64,000 nt of DNA from Sphaerodactylus townsendi. Lineage: Eukaryota. The notes under the pieces are model-generated. The model did not search any database. It was not told the DNA's origin and was given only the letters and a program-made list of their open reading frames with translations. The stretch lies in the NCBI RefSeq assembly GCF_021028975.2, contig NC_059439.1, positions 22,010,001 to 22,074,000 on the forward strand. Reading direction: 5' to 3'. This document shows positions 1 to 59,865 of this stretch, piece by piece (position 1 is the first letter of the stretch; the number at the start of each line of letters is the position of its first letter). A program made the translations under genes and the position numbers.

Positions 1-453
1 CAGGTGTACACACTGGCCTGATGTCCCGTTTGTCTTTTTGTCAGGACAATGTCATCCATCACTCTTTCTGTGACGTTCCACCTCTCTTGCAGCTTTCTTG
101 CTCCAACACTCAAATCAATCAGATTGTTGTCTTTGCGGTGGGTGGAAATGTGGTCATTGGTTCCTTTGTATTGTTGACGCTAGTGTCTTATGTCTATATA
201 GTGGCATCCATCCTCAGGATCATTACACAGGATGCGCCTCAAAGCCTTCTCCACCTGTGCTTCTCACCTGACTGTTGTCAACATATTTTATGTCCTGCCA
301 TCTTTACCTACTTTCTCCAGCTCTCCTTCCTCTTCTAAAAGAGAATCAGGCCCTTTCTGTATGTATGGGATCATTGCACCTATGTTTAATCCAATAGTAT
401 ACAGCTTGAGGAACAGGATGTTGCTAAATGCCCTTCAAAAAAGTAATAGGTAA
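1..453 (+). pseudogene. Olfactory receptor, 3' part only (5' end outside window), frameshifted
   Basis: SFC..NVIHHSFCDVPPLLQLSC and VSYVYIVASILRI in one frame; KAFSTCASHLTVV and PMFNPIVYSLRN in another; small deletions around 225-350. Confidence 0.85.
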
Positions 454-13966: not shown

Positions 13967-14213
13967 TTTGGGTGCTGTGTGGTTTCCGGGCTGTATGGCC
14001 GTGTTCTAGCAGCATTCTCTCCTGACGTTTCGCCTGCATCTGTGGCTGGCATCTTCAGAGGAAGATGAAGATGCCAGATGAAGATCCTCTGAAGATGTAA
14101 CCAGCTTGCCAGATTACCCGGCTAAACGTCGGGAGCTCTGCTAGAACACGCTATGACTTCCTGAAACCTTCCAGCTCACCCAAGTGGTCTAGCCCGTGAA
14201 AGCTCGGCAAATG
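13967..14213. mobile_element. Penelope-like element pLTR fragment in inverted (hairpin) configuration
   Basis: Minus-strand arm 13967-14062 followed by a degenerate plus-strand arm ending ccgtgaaagc..; approximate TSD ctcctaagata. Confidence 0.75.
14020..14062 (-). ncRNA. Minimal type-I hammerhead ribozyme (PLE-associated)
   Basis: Minus strand reads TCCT-CTGAAGA-T-GCC-AGCCACAGATGCA-GGC-GAAAC-GTC-AGGA: CUGANGA and GAAA cores, stem II GCC/GGC, stem I TCCT/AGGA, GUC cleavage triplet. Confidence 0.8.
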
Positions 14214-21800: not shown

Positions 21801-24800
21801 GTCCCCTGCAGGCTGAAAGGCAAAAATACAAAAAAATCAGATGGACCTGAATTTTTCAGGTATATCTGAATATTCGGGTATATCCGAATGTGTTATTTGT
21901 CTTATTAGGGCATACAGATAATTTTATGCCCGAATAAATCTGAATTTTACCAAATTTCTAGGGTATTGACTGGCACTTTTTTGTTTGTTTTTGTTAGAAA
22001 TTAAAGCATTGAGCATATGGAACAGTAACTTTCATAACCAGAATCCTAAGAAGTCTGATATGATTGAAGTAGCAATTCAGCATGAAAAAAAGCAAAATAA
22101 TGGATTGGAACCGGGCATGGGAAACATCCTAAAGAGATTGGTTGTGAAGCCTTTGACAATACATCCTAAAGAGATGTCACAGGCCCATGATGCCATTTTG
22201 TGAACAGTTCAGCTAAAGAATAGCTGTAACAGGGCATTCATTTAATATGTTTTGCATCTGCAAATAAATTTTTTTGGGAACCAAAGGGGTTAAAAACAAG
22301 GCATCATGGAGGGAACATTTTATTTCCTATCTCAAAATGTTTTAAAAGTTTTGTGCAGAAAAGCCAATTGTGGCAAAGTTTTGTGCAGAAAAGCCGACTG
22401 TGTTTATTATGGCCTTTACTGGTTTTTAGTGCTTAGCTGGTAACCTAATCTGTTGTGTCCTGAGACAAGAATAAAAGTCAAAATAATAATTCATAAACTT
22501 CTAACATTCTGTATGCAGTAAACAGAAGTAGTCTGGTGAAATGTGAGGAAAGAAGGATGCAAGAATATTAGCAAGAAAATTTGAGTTCACCTCAAACAGC
22601 TTATAAATGAATTATGATCTGAATGTTTTTGTCCAGAAATTTTTATATCTGGTATTTATTACTAATTTCTTTCGATTATGCATTTAAACCAATTTATATG
22701 GTATTTATACATAAAATGCATGCCATTTTCTGTAATTGTGTACATTGTGCCATGCTGATAATAATAGACAACGTACAATACTGACTTTTCAACACAAACA
22801 TGATTTTGAAAAATGTATAAATTTTATGGCAAAATTCAACGTATACAAATAGAAAAGGGAAATGAAAAAGAAAAAAAGGCTAACTTCAGAAAAATCTAAC
22901 TAAAGGCTCATGCATTCAATTTCTATTGTTAAAACAAACTTGAATGGAAATATTCAAACATGGAAGCTTATTGAAATTTAATAACATCCCTAGCATTAAA
23001 GAAGCTTCATACAAGAAGCACTATAACTAATAAATATCTCTGACATTCCTTCTCCATTCCAAATATTTAAATACATTTTGAAGATGTTTTGCTTGGCTTC
23101 TAATGAAACCCCTAGATTTTATCTCAACTGCTAAGTAGGACTCATTATAATTCAATACAATTGCTATCTATCATTATGAACACTCATTTGTTTTCATTTC
23201 TTTCAGATTGCCTATTGTGTCTTTGCTCCAGTTCAGGAAGTTCAAAGTCAGTTCCCTTCCTTCTATCGCATGGTCTCCAATGAAGAATTTCAGTACATAG
23301 GCCTTGTCTTGCTCCTTTTGCATTTCCAATGGACATGGGTTGGGATCATGACAACGGCTGATGACCAAGGAGACAGATTTGCCCAAACTCTGACCTCTAT
23401 GCTTTTCAAGCATGGAATCTGTACAGCACATGTTGAAAAGATACCAGCTTTGCATCACGCAACACGCTCATTCATATCTCTAGACTCTGTTGCTCTTATG
23501 GCTGTTTCCCTGGCCAATTCTGGTGTAAAGCTATTTGTTGTATATGCAGACCTTCAGATCATAAATACTTTGAAATGGTTGATATATGTGAATGAATTAT
23601 CAGGAGGTATGACCAGTGCTTTCATGGGGATTGTATGGATTATGACAGCCCACTGGGATCTCTCATCACAGACAGAGCTCAGGGAATTTGATATGGACAT
23701 CTTCCATGGTGCTTTGTCCTTTACCATTCACTCCAATGAGGTACTGGATTTCACAAAATTCCTTCAGGGGGTACGTCCTGACTTACAACAGGAAGATGGT
23801 TTTCTCAGGGTCTTCTGGGAAAAGGCTTTTGACTGTATGTTGTCTGATTCTGGTGAAAAGAAGGAAATGAACAATGTTTGCACAGGAGAAGAGAGGCTGG
23901 ATAGCCTACCTGGAGTTATTTTTGAAATGTCCATGACTGGCCAAAGCTATAGCATCTACAATGCAGTCTATGCCATAGCACATGCTTTGCATAAGATAAC
24001 CACATCAAGTTTGAAACTCAGAGCACTGGGGGACAGATATAAATGGGATCCTTCAAATCTACAACCATGGAAGGTAATGTTTCATGACATTTAGAGAAGA
24101 CTTTTGTCCTGAGTTGTTGTCTAATGTATGGTGGCATCTGATGTGGTGAATGCAGCCTTGCAGCCAAATTTCCACATACATTTTCCTTGTATTTAACCCC
24201 TTTTATCCCTGTAATTTCTTAACATTTTCCATTACCACAGAAGCTGTAAGTATCACCGAAACTCCAAATCATGATGTTCCTTTTACTTCCCTTTGCTGTG
24301 TGAGACTTGGGGAAATTTGCCTGAATGTCAATGTAGTCTGTCTCTTTTCTATGCTTCTCTGATGATACTTGTGTACTTATTGGAGAACCTAGTAAATTAG
24401 GGATGGTGTCCAATTGCTAGTTGCTTGTGGTTCAATTAAGAAACAACCACCTCCATTTCATTTAATTTCTTTTTTGTGCAAATCACACCCATGATTCTCC
24501 ATTTGCCCTATTTTCTTGTTTCCCCCACTTTCTGAAATAAAAGCAGGAAACATCAAAATATGTCTTACAAGCCATCAAGTCATTTTTGACTTACGATGAC
24601 CCTATGAATTAAACTTACAAAATGTTCTATAAAAAGCAGCCATGACTAAGCGTGGCTGCCATTGCCACACAGGAGGGGAAAACTGAAGGGGGAGGCAGGG
24701 TGTTTGGAAAATTAATTAGAAGGGGAGGAAAAAAGCACCAAAACAATGCACCAAAAAGAAGCCCCATGATGTCCAGGAGGGGCAGAGCAGGCCAAGGCTT

Positions 24801-27800: not shown

Positions 27801-30480
27801 TTCCGCCAAAGAGTGTCAGCTTCACAGCTCCCCTCAATATCAGATCAGTTCCCATGAACAACTGCCGGCTTGGCTATGACATCATACACTTGCATTAACA
27901 TTGTCCAAAGGGGAGACTTGGGTGGGAAACTCGGCGCCACTCTGCTCCAAGGAGGGGCCAAGGGCCAGGTCGAAGCCTCATGTAGGCTCCCGGCCACCCC
28001 TCCTGATGACGCTGATGCCCATAGTGGGCCTGCCTTCTGCCCTTCTAAGGGGAGGCATGGCAGGGCCTCTTTGCAGTGCCCATCCCGAGCAGCAATGGCG
28101 GGCCCCACTGATTCAGGGCCACTCTTTATGATTGGTGGGGAATTTTCTTTGTAAATGTTATGATACCAAGATTTTAATCATTTTTTAAAAATTTTATAAT
28201 GTCATGTATGATTATTTGTATTTTTTTAGGCAAATTCATTAGTTGTTATTATTGGTCATTCACTGCAAATGAATGAATGAATGAATGAATGAATGAATGA
28301 ATGAATGAATGAATGAATGAATGAATGAATGAATGAATGAATGAGTCAGAAAAGTGGCTAAATCCATCCCACTCCATCCATGTAAAAAAAATAATCCAGA
28401 GCCCTTGAAACTTGCCTTCTTTGTTCATCATTCCATCCTTGTTGTAGGCCCAGCCCCCAGTTGTCATGCCAGAAGTTCAAGCAATAAAGAATGACTGGAA
28501 ATTCTACACAGCTGCTTAGCTTCACAGAATTCAAATTTTGAATCTTGCTATCCAGACACAGTTCTCTTGTTTCATGGGCCATTGAGATCATTGAGATTGA
28601 TAGGCAGCTGAGAAATTTTGGAAAAATTCATGCCCTATTTGACCTGGGAAGTCAGGTAGCAACAGAGGATTTGTCTAGTGCCATTGGCTTATGAAGTGAA
28701 GTCTTTATTTACTGTCAATGACCAAATACCCATTGGCTTATGCAAAACTCCCAAGTCTTCTTCCTTTCCTCAGACTAATTGCTACGACCATGTTCTCCCT
28801 CAGCAAACCAGGGCTAATTCCTCATGGGCCAAAAACAGCCGTGTGAAAACGGTGCGAAAATGCTGCAAAAGGGTTTTAAACGGTGTAAAAGGGTTTATAC
28901 TGTTTTCACACTGTTTTCACACCGCTGTTTTTGGCCCATGCAGAATCAGCCCAAGATAAACTCATGTTTGCAGTTAGAAGCACATTGCCCCTGACTGGTG
29001 ATATGAAACGAAGGGCATCTCAATGTCGTTCCGGGATATAGAGTGTTCGCCATCTGATGTTTGTGTTTTAAGTTTGTGATTGCTGTGGTTTTTAACATTT
29101 TATGATGTGTTTTAGCTGAAGTATTTTATTGTACACTGCCCAGAGCCTTTCGGGGGTGGGTGGTTTAGTAAATCTAAATAATAAATAAACAAACAAACAA
29201 TTCAGAAGGGAAGCCCATGCTGACAATTTGGCAGCATAAAGGAGCATTTCAGTGTCTTTTGAAAGCAGGAAAGTTTCTTATTGAACATCACTAATAGATA
29301 AGTGTCATAATTATGGATTATGACAAGTTTTCTCAGAAAGATACTTTATGGATGGAACATCACACATTATTTATTTACTCATTCATTCATTCATTCATTC
29401 ATTCATTCATTCATTCATTCATTCATTCATTCATTCATTCATTTAGCTTTATACCGCCCTCCCCCGGAGGGCTCAGGGATCTGTTCACTCCCCTGTTCGT
29501 GGAATGGCATTATGTATGGAAATATAAACATGAGATCATGGTATGATTAAGAACTTGAACCTAGATTTCTTTTCGGTTTTTCAGACATGGATGACTGTTT
29601 TAAATGTCCACAAGAGCAGTATCCAAACCTGAACCAAGATAGATGCATTCCCAAGCTTCTAAACTTCCTCTCCTTCACAGAATCTTTGGGCATCACTTTA
29701 GCTTCCTTGGCTCTCTTCCTTTCTTTGATCACAGCTTTGGTGCTAGGAATTTTCATCAAGAACCAAAACACTCCAATAGTCAAAGCCAACAATCGGGACC
29801 TCACCTATTCTCTCCTTGTCTCCCTGTTGCTCTGTTTCCTTTGCTCCTTGCTCTTCATTGGCCGGCCTCAGACTGTGACCTGCTACTTACGGCAAACTAC
29901 TTTTGGCATCATCTTCACAGTGGCTGTTTCATGCATGCTGGCCAAGACCATCACTGTGGTTGTGGCTTTTGCAGCTACTAAGCCAGGCAGCAAGATGAGG
30001 AAATGGGTAGGAAAAAGAGTGGCAAACACCATTCTTATCTGTTGCTCCCTCATTCAAGCCAGTGTTTGTGCCGTGTGGCTCTGCACTGCTCCTCCATTCC
30101 CCCATTTTGACCCGGACACTCTGGCTGAAGAAGTCATAGTGGAATGCAATGAAGGGTCAGTCACAATGTTTTATTTGGTACTGGGGTATCTGGGATTTCT
30201 GGCCATTGTGAGCTTTACTGTGGCTTTCCTCGCCAGGAAGTTGCCTGACAGTTTCAATGAAGCCAAATTTATCACTTTCAGTATGTTGGTGTTTTGCGGC
30301 GTCTGGCTGTCCTTTGTTCCATCTTATCTCAGCACCAAAGGCAAATATATGGTAGCGGTGGAGATCTTCTCTATCTTGGCCTCTAGTGCTGGGCTGCTGG
30401 CTTGTATCTTCTTCCCTAAATGCTACATAATCATTGTGAGGCCTGAGCTGAATTCTAGACACCAGCTAATAAAGAAGTAA
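18593..30480 (+). CDS. Vomeronasal type-2 receptor (V2R, class C GPCR), 6 exons, ~883 aa, intact
   Basis: Exons 18593-18834, 20659-20950, 23207-24073, 25394-25621, 26372-26498, 29585-30480; all GT-AG, phases 2,0,0,0,1 compatible, total 2652 nt; signal peptide, Venus flytrap motifs, Cys-rich domain, 7TM motifs [41 protein letters not shown]. Confidence 0.93.
18952..19290. mobile_element. hAT (Charlie-type) MITE in V2R intron 1
   Basis: TIRs CAGTGGTGGTGAACCT / AGGTTCGCCATCACTG; perfect 8-bp TSD CCTTAGAA. Confidence 0.9.
20659..20950 (+). CDS. V2R exon 2
   Basis: [37 protein letters not shown]; acceptor ctttag, donor CAG|GTAAAA. Confidence 0.92.
20990..21137. mobile_element. Palindromic hAT-type MITE
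   Basis: Near-perfect 148-bp inverted repeat centred on ggccaattggcc; flank tacta duplicated (second copy cut by the gap). Confidence 0.85.
21143..21295. other. Assembly gap
   Basis: Run of N. Confidence 1.
21500..21970 (-). mobile_element. Fragment of the 14920-type hAT-like element, opposite orientation
   Basis: One palindromic module plus attttatgcccgaat...gtattgac, the reverse complement of the 14928-14985 end. Confidence 0.7.
22139..22160 (+). mobile_element. 22-bp Penelope-like 3' end micro-insertion
   Basis: tggttgtgaagcctttgacaat matches the PLE terminus at 51381-51397; perfect 15-bp TSD ACATCCTAAAGAGAT. Confidence 0.7.
23207..24073 (+). CDS. V2R exon 3
   Basis: [48 protein letters not shown]; acceptor tttcag, donor AAG|GTAATG. 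Confidence 0.93.
24640..25135 (+). mobile_element. GC-rich LTR-like (Gypsy or DIRS/Ngaro terminal-repeat-like) fragment
   Basis: Homologous in inverted orientation to 27545-28145. Confidence 0.5.
25394..25621 (+). CDS. V2R exon 4
   Basis: [27 protein letters not shown]; 228 bp; acceptor ttccaag, donor CAG|GTGGGA. Confidence 0.92.
26372..26498 (+). CDS. V2R exon 5 (cysteine-rich domain)
   Basis: [42 protein letters not shown]; too short for the ORF track; donor G|GTATGA. Confidence 0.92.
27110..27312. mobile_element. hAT (Charlie-type) MITE
   Basis: TIRs CAGTGATTCCCAAA / TTTGGGAACCACTG; perfect 8-bp TSD CTTTAGAG. Confidence 0.9.
27545..28145 (-). mobile_element. GC-rich LTR-like repeat
   Basis: Reverse complement shares gcctcacgcttc...aataa...tggctatgg with 57410-57475 and a long block with 24940-25060. 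Confidence 0.55.
28268..28343. repeat. (GAAT)n microsatellite
   Basis: Direct reading. Confidence 0.95.
28811..28951. mobile_element. Short palindromic Harbinger-type MITE
   Basis: ggct.attc..catgggccaaaaacagc / gctgtttttggcccatgcagaatcagcc. Confidence 0.7.
29378..29443. repeat. (ATTC)n microsatellite, tail of a tiny minus-strand L2 3' end (29444-29478)
   Basis: Followed by tttataccgccctcccccggagggctcaggg. Confidence 0.9.
29585..30480 (+). CDS. V2R exon 6 (7TM domain)
   Basis: [38 protein letters not shown]; acceptor ttttcag; TAA stop. Confidence 0.95.
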
Positions 30481-33861: not shown

Positions 33862-35160
33862 TATAAACCGCCCTCCCCCGAAGGGCTCAGGGCGGTGAAC
33901 AAACAAATAGATAGAGCACAATAAAATCAGTAATCATTAAATAACGGCTCTATACATATTTAAAATCAACCCCATTAAAATGCAGCGTTCTAACATCAGG
34001 TAAAGTAATGGCATCCTACTAATAGATCCCCTAAAAAGGGGGGAGGGGAAGAAGAGAAGAGGGACAGCAGGGTCCACAGATGTTAAAAGGGGGGGGCATC
34101 AACGGCCAGCCTCTCCAAAGGCCTGGTGGAACAACTCTGTCTTGCAGGCCCTGCGGAAATCATTAAGATCCCGCAGGGCCCGCATAGCTGGAGGTAGAGT
34201 GTTCCACCAGGCAGGGGCCAGAGCTGTAAAGGCTCTGGCCCGGGTGGAGGCTAGCCGCATCATTGAGGGGCCAGGGATCACCAGTAGGTTGGCCTCTGCT
34301 GAACGCAGAGGTCGATTTGGGACATATGGGGCAAGACGGTCCCTGAAGTAATGAGGAGGTCCCAGGTCAGCAAGGCCTTAAAGGTCAATACCAACACCTT
34401 GAAGATGATTCGGAATTCAACCGGTAACCAGTGCAGGCGGCGCAACACAGGTGAAATATGATCTCTGGCGGCACCTCCTGTGAGCAGGCGGGCCGCCGCA
34501 TTCTGGACCAGTTTTAATTTCTGAATCAATCTCAAGGGAAGGCCTGTGTAGAGCGAGTTGCAATAGTCTAGCCTGGAGGTGACCGTTGTATGGATCACAG
34601 TAGCCAGATCCGTTTGGGAGAGGAAGGGGGCCAGCAGTCGGGCTTGCCGGAGATGAAAAAACGCAACCAGGGTTACATGGGCCACCTGGGTCTCCATTGA
34701 AAGAGATGAATCCAGGTGGACCCCCAGGCTGCGGATGGAGGAGGCCGGTGCCAATGTAACCCCCTCCCACACCGGCGGCTGGAAATCCCCAACCCCTCCC
34801 CCCCGGCCCAGCCAGAGGATCTCCGTCTTCGATGGATTCAGTTTTAACCTGCTCTGCTTCAACCAACCAGCGACCGCCTCCAAGCAATGCTGGAGAGCTA
34901 CAGGGGCAATGACCGTTCCCCCCTCCATCAACAGAATGAGCTGAGTGTCATCAGCATATTGATGACAGGTCAGCCCAAAGCTCCATACTAACTGAGCAAG
35001 GGGTCGCATATAGATGTTAAATAACAGCGGGGACAACAGCGCTCCCTGAGGTACACCACACTGAAGTGGGCACTTTCGGGAGGCTGAGTCCCCGCACCAC
35101 ACTTGCTGGGTCCGGTCCCGGAGAAACGAGGCAATCCACTGAAGGACAGTGTGTGTCATT
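33780..35160 (-). mobile_element. 5'-truncated L2-clade LINE with reverse transcriptase fragment and (TAA)n tail
   Basis: ORF 34278-35171: GVPQGALLSPLLFNIYM, HQYADDTQL, LKLNPSKTE, SRLDYCNSL, LHWLPV; 3' stem-loop at 33868-33894; (ATT)n at 33781-33862. Confidence 0.92.
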
Positions 35161-35229
35161 TTTGGTTGCATGCAATGGAATCATTTCCATTGAGTGTCTT
35201 ATTATCACTGCGGATTCATCCAGCAATCC

Positions 35230-50290: not shown

Positions 50291-51247
50291 ATGGCCAACT
50301 CTAGCACTGTTACAATGTTTCTTCTTCTGGGTTTCTCGGACACTTGGGAACAAAATATATGGTACTTCATTCTTTTATTAGTGGTTTACTTGGCAGCTCT
50401 GACAGCAAACTTCCTCATCATTTCAGCTGTTGCCCTGGAACAGCACTTGCATACTCCCATGTACTTTTTCCTGGTGAATTTATCTGTTCTTGATCTGGGA
50501 TCCATATCTGTCACCATCCCAAATGCTATGATTAGTTCCCTCTTCAACACCTGGGAGATTTCATATTCTGGATGTGTAGCACAGGTGTATTCTTTGTTCT
50601 TTTTCTTGGCATCGGACTTTTTCCTCCTCACGGGCATGGCCTATGACAGATACGTTGCCATCTGTGACCCACTGCACTATGAGACAGTGATGGATAGAAC
50701 AGTCTGCATCAAGATGGCAGCCAGCGCATGGGTGGCTGGTCTTCTTTACTCAGGTTTACATACTGGTAGTACTTTTGCCATCACTTTCTGCGCCAATGTC
50801 ATCAACCAGTTCTTCTGTGAGATTTCACAGCTACTCAAACTATCATGTGACAATTTATACCTCATTGAAATTGGAGTTCTTGTTTTCAGTGAATTTATAG
50901 CCTTTTCTTGTTTTGGTTTAATAATTGTTTCATACATATACATTTTCAAGTCAGTGCTCAAAATCCCCACCACTCACGGAAGGAACAAAGCTTTCTCAAC
51001 ATGTGTACCCCACCTTATTGTTGTTTCTTTGTATATCAGCACTGGAAGCTTTGCCTATCTGAAGCCAAACTCACAATCCCCTTCAGATCTGGATCTGGTG
51101 ATTGCTATCCTGTATTCTGTGGTTCCTCCACTGATGAATCCAATCATCTATACAATGAGGAACAGGGACATCAAAACTGCACTATGGAAAATGTTTCATT
51201 GTGGCAATTTTTCAGGAAGAAAAGCAAGGCTTCCCCCATCAATCTGA
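50291..51247 (+). CDS. Olfactory receptor, intact, 318 aa (OR14-like)
   Basis: NSS site, [52 protein letters not shown]; acceptor ctcaacag upstream. Confidence 0.96.
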   Translation: MANSSTVTMFLLLGFSDTWEQNIWYFILLLVVYLAALTANFLIISAVALEQHLHTPMYFFLVNLSVLDLGSISVTIPNAMISSLFNTWEISYSGCVAQVYSLFFFLASDFFLLTGMAYDRYVAICDPLHYETVMDRTVCIKMAASAWVAGLLYSGLHTGSTFAITFCANVINQFFCEISQLLKLSCDNLYLIEIGVLVFSEFIAFSCFGLIIVSYIYIFKSVLKIPTTHGRNKAFSTCVPHLIVVSLYISTGSFAYLKPNSQSPSDLDLVIAILYSVVPPLMNPIIYTMRNRDIKTALWKMFHCGNFSGRKARLPPSI

Positions 51248-51282
51248 TCCCAAGGCACAATTTGTCAAAGAAAAAGCATTTT

Positions 51283-51397
51283 GGGATGCTGTGTGGTTTC
51301 CGGGCTGTATGGCCGTGTTCTAGCCGCATTCTGTCCTGACGTTTCACCTGCATCTGTGGCTGGCATCTTCAGAGGATCAAAAAGCCTTTGACAATAC
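51283..51397. mobile_element. Penelope-like element short insertion with inversion
   Basis: Minus-strand pLTR piece plus plus-strand terminus aaagcctttgacaatac; perfect 12-bp TSD AAAAAGCATTTT. Confidence 0.8.
51334..51376 (-). ncRNA. Minimal type-I hammerhead ribozyme (PLE-associated)
   Basis: Minus strand TCCT-CTGAAGA-T-GCC-AGCCACAGATGCA-GGT-GAAAC-GTC-AGGA; cores intact, one G-U pair in stem II. Confidence 0.78.
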
Positions 51398-52404
51398 AAA
51401 AAGCATTTTCATAGCCGTGAGATCATAAAGAAAACAGGGCACAAAAGCAACAAGACCTGCTATTTTGTACTTTGCATGTATAGTTCTGAAGGGAAGCTTT
51501 TCAGACAAGTGTTTCTTTAAAAAATAGTTTTGGGTAGCTGCAATGGTCTGTGATAGGACAACTAGATTCAAGTCTAGTAGAAACTTAGGGACTTACAAGA
51601 TTTTCAGATTATAAACTGTTACTTATAAAAGCTTATATCTCCCCAAAATCTTGGTGTTGTTTTTAAGTGTTTAATGCATTAGAAACATTTACGATAGAAG
51701 TAAGGCTTCTGCTCTTCTGAGATCATTCTTAAGAAGTACCTACACCTTTACTTAATTTGTTGCTTTTAACTGTGCTTTCAAACTAAATAGTGCATGTATT
51801 CTATATTAGTCCAGAAGTTGTTTGAATCCCCAGAACACATAAAATTTGTAAATTATTATGCTGTTGGCCCATAATAGGGACGGACTGAATTCTTTTGCTT
51901 GTTCTAAACATGCTCCCCCGCTAAAATAACGTCCCACTTTTATATCGTAAACTGTTGTTTTTAATGCTCAATGAAGACAGTCTGAAAAAGGTAAGTGGAT
52001 TGAATGGCAAGGAGGAATGGTGATGGAGCAGAAAAGTGGGTAATAGAAACAGTGTAGTGGCTGTCAGGAACAGAAAATAACAGTGGTAGGTTGGTGGGTG
52101 GGTAGGAGGAAGAAAAGGAGAGAGGAGAAGAGACAGACTAGAGAAGAAAAGAGTGAATGGGACATTGAGATGCCTCCCACAAGGGATTGCAAGTTCCCCA
52201 TTTGTAAGGCCTATAATAGAAGCCCAGTTGGAAGCTGGAATTGATCAGAAATATGGGGATTTTGATGGAAATGAGCTGCCTGTTACCTTTACCATACTGT
52301 CTACAGTTTTTGTAGCCATTTCTTTTGGTGGTGTGCCTATTCTGCTATCAATTTTAAACTGATCTATTACAAGCTTCTGGGACTGTAGAGCTGACTGTGT
52401 TAAT

Positions 52405-58908: not shown

Positions 58909-59865
58909 ATGACCAACTCTAGCACTGTTACAACATTTCTTCTTCTGGGTTTCTCTGACTCTTGGGAACAAAATATATGGTATTTCATTCTTTTATTAGT
59001 GGTTTACTTGGCAGCTCTGACAGCAAACTTCCTCATCATTTCAGCTGTTTCTACAGACCAGCACTTACATACTCCCATGTACTTTTTCCTGGTGAATTTA
59101 TCTGTTGTTGATCTGGGATGCATATCTGTCACCATCCCGAATGCCATGATTAATTCTCTCTTCAACACCTGGGAGATTTCATATTCTGGATGTGTAGCAC
59201 AGGTGTATTCCTTGTTCTTTTTCTTGATAGTAGACTTTTTCCTCCTCACAGACATGGCCTATGATAGATACGTTGCCATCTGTGACCCGCTGCACTATGA
59301 GACAGTGATGGATAGAACAGTCTGCATCAAAATGGCAGCCAGCGCATGGGCTGCTGGTCTTCTTTACTCAGGTTTACATACTGGTAGTACTTTTGCCATC
59401 ACCTTCTGCTCCAATGTCATCAACCAGTTCTTCTGTGAGATCCCACAGCTACTAAAACTATCATGTGACAATCTGTACCTTATTGAAGTTGGAGTTCTTG
59501 TTTTCGGTGTGTTTGTAATCTTCCCTTGTTTTGGTTTCATAATTGTTTCATACGTGTACATTTTCAAGTCAGTGCTCAAAATCCCTACCACACAGGGAAG
59601 GAACAAAGCTTTCTCAACATGTATACCTCACCTTACTGTGGTCTCGTTGTTTGTCAGTACCGGAAGCTTTGCTTATCTGAAGCCAAACTCACAATCCTCT
59701 TCAGATCTGGACTTGATGTTTGCTATCCTGTATTCTGTGGTTCCTCCACTGATGAATCCAATCATCTATACAATGAGGAACAGGGACATCAAAACTGCCA
59801 TTTGGAAAATGATTGATTGTGGCAATTTTTCCGAAAGAAAAGCAAGGTTTTCCCCAACAATCTGA
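58909..59865 (+). CDS. Olfactory receptor, intact, 318 aa (OR14-like; tandem paralog of 50291-51247)
   Basis: [64 protein letters not shown]. Confidence 0.96.
   Translation: MTNSSTVTTFLLLGFSDSWEQNIWYFILLLVVYLAALTANFLIISAVSTDQHLHTPMYFFLVNLSVVDLGCISVTIPNAMINSLFNTWEISYSGCVAQVYSLFFFLIVDFFLLTDMAYDRYVAICDPLHYETVMDRTVCIKMAASAWAAGLLYSGLHTGSTFAITFCSNVINQFFCEIPQLLKLSCDNLYLIEVGVLVFGVFVIFPCFGFIIVSYVYIFKSVLKIPTTQGRNKAFSTCIPHLTVVSLFVSTGSFAYLKPNSQSSSDLDLMFAILYSVVPPLMNPIIYTMRNRDIKTAIWKMIDCGNFSERKARFSPTI

What the first reader, a model, noticed from the sequence alone, without database searches (positions are those of the whole stretch)
51271..51409. Hammerhead ribozyme inserted 35 bp after an OR stop codon, absent from its paralog
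Seen: a 115-bp insert with a perfect 12-bp TSD whose minus strand has CUGAAGA, stem II, GAAAC, GUC and stem I TCCT/AGGA; the paralog after 59865 lacks it. Known: Penelope-like elements carry minimal type-I hammerheads with a palindromic ACGU stem III that cleave as dimers. Inference: it is antisense to the OR mRNA, so it would cut antisense transcripts running into the OR, not the mRNA. The paralog pair is a natural with/without comparison.
Basis: partly seen in the sequence, partly recalled or inferred. Interest (0 to 1): 0.7.

Follow-up and report, generated by a model that had tools for sequence, protein, structure and literature searches.

The report
Decayed Penelope stub beside odorant receptor
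A 115-base scrap of a very common jumping gene sits just after an odorant-receptor gene and carries a mutated hammerhead-ribozyme motif on the opposite strand; it is likely an inert insertion scar rather than a gene switch.

Summary
In detail: a 115-bp insert (51283-51397), an exact 12-bp TSD, and a minus-strand minimal hammerhead 35 bp after an intact OR stop; four paralogs lack it. It is not one piece. It is a two-armed Penelope/Poseidon insertion: a 96-bp arm (element positions -12..+83) joined head-to-head to the element's 18-bp 'tail' end (+101..+118). These ends fit the two reverse-transcription start sites shown for the Anolis element PAc. The genome holds at least 21,553 such cores and an intact 819-aa parent ORF that starts inside the ribozyme.

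This is ordinary CpG decay (10,485 C, 1,642 T, 1,398 mirror G>A copies). The copy is single, so it has no dimer partner in cis. It lacks the upstream TATA box and the downstream RNA that PAc protein needs, and the PAc ribozyme did not cut without protein. Contigs labelled as two other organisms carry the insert with no sign of extra conservation. No RNA data were available. Landing near some gene's stop is expected by chance.

Verdict: ordinary; a regulatory role is unsupported. The scan has noted this family many times elsewhere.

The parts
50291..51247 (+). Intact olfactory receptor ORF, 318 aa (host gene)
   Evidence: PF13853 E=3.8e-45
51271..51282 (.). Left copy of the 12-bp target-site duplication (10 of 12 A/T)
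   Evidence: single near-intact site in paralog L110
51283..51378 (-). Long arm: Penelope/Poseidon pLTR and ORF start, element positions -12..+83 (A of ATG = +1 at 51366); ends at the inner RT start site
   Evidence: reads in frame as the first 28 residues of the parent ORF
51334..51376 (-). Minimal type-I hammerhead motif; C17 = 51338; position 11.1 = 51346 is U instead of C
51380..51397 (+). Short arm: the element's tail end, positions +101..+118, in the opposite orientation; ends at the outer RT start site
   Evidence: an arm of like length is seen in L002-L008, L015, L023
51398..51409 (.). Right copy of the target-site duplication
58909..59865 (+). Paralogous olfactory receptor without the insert

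Best explanation
This is a short, head-to-head insertion of an abundant Penelope-like retrotransposon related to the Anolis element PAc, likely made in one event by priming both cut DNA strands, and its hammerhead motif is likely an inactive passenger with no role in OR regulation. Inferred mechanism: the element's GIY-YIG endonuclease nicked an AT-rich site on both strands 12 bp apart. One nick primed reverse transcription at the inner start site (about +83) and ran to about -12, likely the 5' end of the RNA. The other primed at the outer site (about +118) and stopped after 18 nt. The two cDNAs were joined and the gaps filled, giving the TSD. The hammerhead came along because it overlaps the element's start codon. 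The copy then decayed: CpG>TpG at position 11.1 and in the tail, plus three other substitutions. Shown here: anatomy, family, copy number, parent ORF, end positions, substitutions. Inferred: two-strand priming, transcript start at about -13, inactivity, neutrality.
For: Family: 21,553 core matches, control 0. [quoted passage not shown] By eye, its first 120 nt differ at about 19 positions, without gaps, from the PAc template printed in PMC11167929, and the cut site lies 26 nt after the start codon in both. Ends: in 59 loci not selected for their ends, 3' ends cluster at +83..87 and +116..120. Of these, 35 hold an inverted pair: 31 have one end of each type, 1 has two tail ends, 3 have an end outside both classes. 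TSD estimates are 11-15 bp in 20 of 35 (crude caller). Decay: 10,485 C, 1,642 T and 1,398 mirror G>A copies of the 39-mer, the near-symmetry expected of CpG deamination. Inactivity (literature): single minimal hammerheads showed no cleavage and dimers little (PMC4209133); the PAc ribozyme needs protein, the minimal RNA for insertion needs ORF nt 1-172, and no RNA-seq reads ended at the cut site (PMC11167929). This copy stops at +83 on the ribozyme strand. Chance: genome density gives about 8 (within 35 bp) or 24 (within 100 bp) such neighbours per 20,000 genes, a gene number I assumed. A contig of organism B over 51295-51560 has 14 differences, of which 6 are listed in the flank, leaving up to 8 in insert plus TSD by subtraction.
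Against: No RNA data or cleavage assay exists for this locus, so inactivity is inferred. The size of the G·U effect rests on recalled hammerhead biochemistry; two paper searches listed no direct measurement, and the model penalty is only about 2 kcal/mol. In its 161-nt context this copy is predicted to form stems I and II together more often (0.38; 0.11 as a 54-mer) than two intact copies folded with less flank (0.03, 0.006). The insert is retained in organisms A, B and C. 2 of 14 intact OR ORFs in the surrounding 464 kb have a family piece within 500 bp of the stop, against about 0.6% per gene expected; one of the two is this finding, picked for that reason. One B contig shows both its differences in the flank and none in 39 nt of insert. 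D. virilis Penelope has an internal promoter (PMC2377424), so the stub could in principle still start transcripts.
Confidence: 0.86

Rival explanations
1. One reading: the motif is an active ribozyme that cuts antisense transcripts running into the OR gene and so shields or tunes OR expression.
For: Core boxes, stem I and the ACGU palindrome are intact; orientation is antisense to the OR; the local flank is predicted to clamp stem I; the insert persists in three organism labels; over 20,000 family copies could supply a dimer partner in trans.
Against: G10.1·U11.1; no tandem partner; the ACGU duplex is worth only -1.7 kcal/mol; the close homolog is protein-dependent and this strand lacks +84..+172; no sign of conservation beyond the flank.
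Confidence: 0.03
2. The insert affects the OR by non-catalytic means: as new sequence in the likely 3'UTR of the mRNA (pairing with abundant Penelope RNAs or small RNAs), as a methylation seed, or as a weak internal promoter firing antisense into the OR.
For: The first AATAAA/ATTAAA lies 1176 bp after the stop, so the insert is likely inside the mRNA; the mRNA strand is complementary to the element's transcript; CpG decay indicates germline methylation; Penelope has an internal promoter in Drosophila.
Against: The copy begins at -12 and lacks the TATA box seen 28-35 nt upstream of the TCAG motif in 16 copies that retain that region; only 96 nt of complementarity; no expression data.
Confidence: 0.09
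3. It is a self-propagating mini-element or retrozyme rather than a by-product of the full element's insertion.
For: Similar short-tail-arm plus 96-bp-arm layouts recur at several loci (L002-L008, L015, L023).
Against: Those loci were retrieved by this very query. Their junctions differ by 1-8 nt from copy to copy, and arm lengths vary widely in the unselected set. It is not a tandem repeat.
Confidence: 0.02

Closest known systems
PAc / Poseidon_Ac of Anolis carolinensis (Frangieh et al. 2024, PMC11167929; abstract, results, methods and one supplementary table read; the GenBank supplement was unreadable)
   Same: Collinear sequence (about 101 of 120 nt by eye); ORF starts at stem II with the cut site 26 nt after the start codon; two RT start sites bounding the tail; AT-rich target; both strands extended in vitro.
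   Different: This is a 115-bp non-coding stub, not a full element; position 11.1 is mutated. In vitro no strand difference in start site was seen, whereas genomic inverted pairs here are 31 of 32 one-of-each.
Minimal type-I hammerheads of metazoan Penelope-like elements (Cervera and de la Pena 2014, PMC4209133; results and discussion read)
   Same: Short helix I, unpaired base between 9 and 10.1, palindromic 15.2-16.2 with no loop, mostly found as dispersed single motifs from truncated elements.
   Different: The highly conserved G10.1-C11.1 pair is G·U here; no tandem partner.
Canonical EN+ PLE insertion unit with inverted 5'-truncated pLTR, one-sided 30-40-bp tail and short TSD (PMC3846280, PMC8557442; passages read)
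   Same: Head-to-head arms, tail at one end only (35 nt between the two end types), 12-bp TSD.
   Different: Extremely truncated: one arm is only the last 18 nt of the tail.
Hammerheads in mammalian Clec2 mRNA 3'UTRs (recalled, not read here)
   Same: A hammerhead next to the 3' end of a protein-coding gene.
   Different: Those lie on the mRNA strand, are canonical monomer-active ribozymes and are conserved; this one is antisense, minimal, mutated and one of over 20,000 copies.

Membership tests
EN+ Penelope-like element (Penelope/Poseidon) | Parent with a single ORF holding an RT domain | tested here: met
   L046 819-aa ORF, RVT_1 E=1.1e-12; its first 28 codons match the insert's long arm
EN+ Penelope-like element (Penelope/Poseidon) | C-terminal GIY-YIG endonuclease | tested here: inconclusive
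   GVY...YIG motif at aa 700-714 by eye; Pfam gave no GIY-YIG hit at E<=0.001
EN+ Penelope-like element (Penelope/Poseidon) | Hammerhead in the pLTR overlapping the ORF start, as in PAc | tested here: met
   ATG at 51366 begins stem II; C17 is ORF position +29
EN+ Penelope-like element (Penelope/Poseidon) | Inverted truncated arm with a one-sided 30-40-nt tail and a TSD | tested here: met
   Arms end at +83 and +118; 12-bp TSD; 31 of 35 inverted pairs elsewhere alike
EN+ Penelope-like element (Penelope/Poseidon) | RT phylogeny placing it in the Poseidon clade | not tested
   No tree built; assignment rests on by-eye collinearity with the printed PAc template
Minimal type-I PLE hammerhead | Core boxes CUGAnGA, GAAA, GUC; extra base after A9; palindromic 15.2-16.2 | tested here: met
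Minimal type-I PLE hammerhead | G10.1-C11.1 base pair | tested here: not met
   G·U; 51346 is T, the minority CpG-decay state
Minimal type-I PLE hammerhead | Second motif on the same transcript for the active dimer | tested here: not met
   The only other core in the window is 37 kb away; no other family piece within 3 kb downstream of this OR
Minimal type-I PLE hammerhead | Self-cleavage | not testable with these tools
   needs an in vitro assay or 5'-OH end mapping
Rfam hammerhead families | Covariance-model match | tested here: not met
Regulatory 3'UTR hammerhead (Clec2-like; features recalled) | On the mRNA strand | tested here: not met
   OR is on +, motif on -
Regulatory 3'UTR hammerhead (Clec2-like; features recalled) | Conserved above the flank across orthologs | tested here: inconclusive
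   Present in organisms A, B, C; differences in the insert only by subtraction from one contig
Non-LTR retrozyme | Tandem units each bearing a hammerhead | tested here: not met
   Single TSD-flanked copy; criterion from bioRxiv 10.64898/2026.07.22.740005, passages

The most novel reading that the evidence does not exclude
A CpG-weakened Penelope hammerhead, clamped into its fold by host flank, has been kept across related species because it cuts antisense read-through into this OR gene when paired in trans with abundant Penelope RNA or helped by element protein: a transposon-dependent ribozyme switch on odorant-receptor expression.
Probability: 0.03. Interest if true: 0.75.

Novelty: new member of a known kind. 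Interest (0 to 1): 0.13.

Why it matters
As a single locus it matters little: it is one of over 20,000 stubs of a described lizard retrotransposon. Its use is as a footprint of how Penelope elements insert. Genomic inverted pairs almost always use the two RT start sites one each (31 of 32 classifiable pairs), and over half of copies stop within a few bases of a TATA/initiator-like site just before the ribozyme (22,072 matches at -11..+9 against 9,474 at -16..+4). Both constrain models of the PAc reaction, but the one-sided tail is already in print and other windows of this scan made similar notes. If the ribozyme did regulate the OR it would be a rare case of a co-opted minimal hammerhead; nothing here points that way.

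Tried and rejected
Rfam: no hammerhead hit; the models likely do not cover loop-less minimal motifs, so this neither confirms nor refutes. Single-strand folding: no excess stability (z +0.9 to +1.6 for the three minus-strand folds, -0.2 for the plus strand). Homodimer cofolding never gave the full active dimer, for this copy or for intact ones, so it is uninformative. Sequencing runs: no RNA holder listed, which is no evidence on expression. The base at 51346 in orthologs could not be read, because repeat copies swamp it. Luense et al. (dimer cleavage of PLE hammerheads) is not held and is known here only through a review passage (PMC6765202). Searching the PAc paper's text supplements for family motifs gave 0 hits; its GenBank file is unreadable. 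PDB search of the parent protein gave only weak RT hits. My first OR filter was too strict (7 ORFs) and was redone (14). Rejected ideas: that the short arm is a templated copy of the flank (it matches element +101..+118); that the T at 11.1 marks a subfamily (the mirror G>A change is nearly as common). Not settled: whether the -12 boundary is a transcription start or a splice acceptor (CAG after a pyrimidine tract); the TATA spacing of 28-30 nt in 10 of 16 copies favours a start. My 59 loci were chosen for an intact core, so they cannot show how often copies begin at the ribozyme cut site.

Full report
Observation. The insert, TSD and distances are as described: exact 12-bp repeats at 51271-51282 and 51398-51409, 115 bp between them, and the OR stop 35 bp upstream. 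The minus strand reads stem I UCCU, CUGAAGA, one unpaired U, stem II, GAAAC, GUC, AGGA, with C17 at 51338. Both neighbouring ORFs are 318-aa olfactory receptors. The window paralog and three more just downstream on C15 lack the insert, and one (L110) keeps the target site once, nearly unchanged, so this is a true insertion. Rfam finds no hammerhead.

What it is. The stretch is highly repeated: a 34-letter core pattern has 21,553 exact matches in the 1.81-Gb genome, reversed control 0. The window holds a second, intact-core copy near 13968-14062 and a tiny TSD-flanked remnant near 22140-22163. Following the sequence past its usual end led to a natural full-length copy, L046, with an 819-aa ORF that begins at the ATG inside the hammerhead. 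It carries RVT_1 (E=1.1e-12) and a GVY...YIG motif near its C-terminus, seen by eye and not hit by Pfam. The RNA template of the Anolis element PAc printed in PMC11167929 is collinear with it, about 19 differences in the first 120 nt by my eye count, and has the same geometry: ORF starting at stem II, cut site 26 nt after the start codon. The host is therefore likely a squamate (inference). No RT tree was built.

Anatomy. Mapped on a natural copy (A of ATG = +1), the insert has two arms: minus strand -12 to about +83, and plus strand +101..+118. I fetched the first 64 of the 10,485 places, merged into 59 loci. Their 3' ends cluster at +83..87 and +116..120. 35 of the 59 hold an inverted pair: 31 with one end of each class, 1 with two tail ends, 3 with an end outside both classes; the other 24 showed no pair. 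This fits the two RT start sites that PMC11167929 reports as bounding the tail (the outer one at 111-118) and the one-sided tail described in PMC3846280 and PMC8557442 (passages). 5' ends pile up at -6..-18. Genome-wide, a 20-mer at -11..+9 has 22,072 matches and one at -16..+4 has 9,474. Copies that keep upstream sequence have TATATA 28-35 nt before a TCAG motif (16 cases, 10 at 28-30), so -13 is likely the transcript start, though a splice acceptor is not excluded. Inferred mechanism: staggered nicks 12 bp apart at an AT-rich site, each strand priming at one of the two sites, one cDNA running to the RNA's 5' end and the other stopping early, then joining and fill-in.

Is the ribozyme alive? 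The long arm differs from L046 at 4 of 89 positions (51346, 51333, 51325, 51286), and the short arm has one CpG change. Position 51346 is 11.1, turning G10.1-C11.1, called highly conserved in PMC4209133, into G·U. The intact 39-mer has 10,485 copies, this T form 1,642, and the mirror G>A form, which destroys G12, 1,398. That is methyl-CpG decay, not a subfamily. How much G·U slows cleavage I know only from recall; two searches listed no measurement, and the folding penalty is about 2 kcal/mol. Architecture matters more. Stem III has no loop and needs a second molecule, and the ACGU duplex gives -1.7 kcal/mol. A single S. mansoni minimal motif did not cleave and dimers cleaved little. The PAc ribozyme cleaved only with protein, the RNA needed ORF nt 1-172 for insertion, and no RNA-seq reads ended at the cut site. 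On the ribozyme strand this copy ends at +83. Against my reading: in its 161-nt context stems I and II are predicted together with probability 0.38, above two intact copies folded with less flank (0.03, 0.006), partly because the short arm pairs with 9 nt of host flank.

Is the position special? At the measured density, a core within 35 or 100 bp of a stop is expected for about 8 or 24 of an assumed 20,000 genes, and for 0.25 or 0.7 of an assumed 600 ORs. In 464 kb around the window there are 33 family pieces and 14 intact OR ORFs. Two of these have a piece within 500 bp downstream: this one, and a perfect sense-strand copy 445 bp after another OR. That is somewhat above expectation, but one case is the finding itself and the copy count is a lower bound. 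The paralog is a poor control: CDS 876/957 identical, 3' flank about 67%, very different polyadenylation-signal spacing.

Other genomes. Eight runs hold the stretch, from organisms A-D in three studies, none on record as RNA. Contigs of B and C bridge the right junction, and one B contig covers 51295-51560 with 14 differences, 6 listed in the flank and so up to 8 in insert plus TSD by subtraction. Another B contig has 0 differences in 39 nt of insert and 2 in the flank. The insert thus predates the A/B/C split, with no clear sign of constraint. D is inconclusive, and the study holding A and C may include the source of this assembly.

Verdict. A real insertion and a real, mutated minimal hammerhead motif; a new copy of a known kind. 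Regulatory cleavage of antisense RNA is possible but has no support (about 3%). Earlier AI notes of this scan, looked up after my reading was formed, describe the same family in this and other genomes; they are not counted as evidence. Figures and the GenBank supplement of PMC11167929 could not be seen, so the exact position of the inner RT start site in PAc is taken from its text (30-40-bp tail), not from the figure.

Noticed in passing
G000:C15:21962960-21963240 (L121 about 2010-2290): A young copy of the same family, 100% identical to L046 over -7..+85, with upstream pLTR, TATA box and an apparent 14-15-bp TSD, lies in SENSE orientation with its core 445 bp after another intact OR stop (21962688). 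An AATAAA inside the left TSD copy, 276 bp after the stop, may end the mRNA before it. It is a better test of mRNA cleavage than the finding.
   Followed up: partly
window 13968-14200: Second family insertion: an intact-core minus arm, a jumbled junction, and a plus arm far more degenerate than its partner. Similar one-sided degeneration is seen in L030, L084, L085, L093 and L105; possibly a sequencing or assembly error in hairpin-forming repeats.
   Followed up: no
window 22125-22177: Minimal insertion of about 25 bp between about 14-bp direct repeats: the tail end +102..+119 plus a few bases that may be the remnant of the opposite arm.
   Followed up: partly
L046 799-3258 (G000:C3:109298-111757): Intact 819-aa Penelope-type ORF with an inverted arm at its 5' end, inserted into another repeat; the family may be recently active (22 of 64 sampled arms are identical to it over 89 nt, in a sample selected for an intact core).
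   Followed up: partly
L047-L105: 31 of 32 classifiable inverted pairs use the two RT start sites one each, although the in vitro study saw no strand difference in start site; this suggests the two priming events are coordinated in vivo.
   Followed up: partly
L082, L103; loose ends at window 51334-51342 and 51375: A second, diverged hammerhead-bearing family shares the core but has different flanks.
   Followed up: no
window 23270-24094 and 29587-30480: Exons of a family C GPCR, by look a vomeronasal type-2 receptor (name recalled, not searched), inside the OR cluster; also a LINE-type RT fragment at 34278-35171.
   Followed up: no
window 51397-51560 in runs X7, X8: Organism B shows two clearly different sequences over the right flank (several substitutions and small indels): two divergent haplotypes or a duplicated locus.
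   Followed up: no
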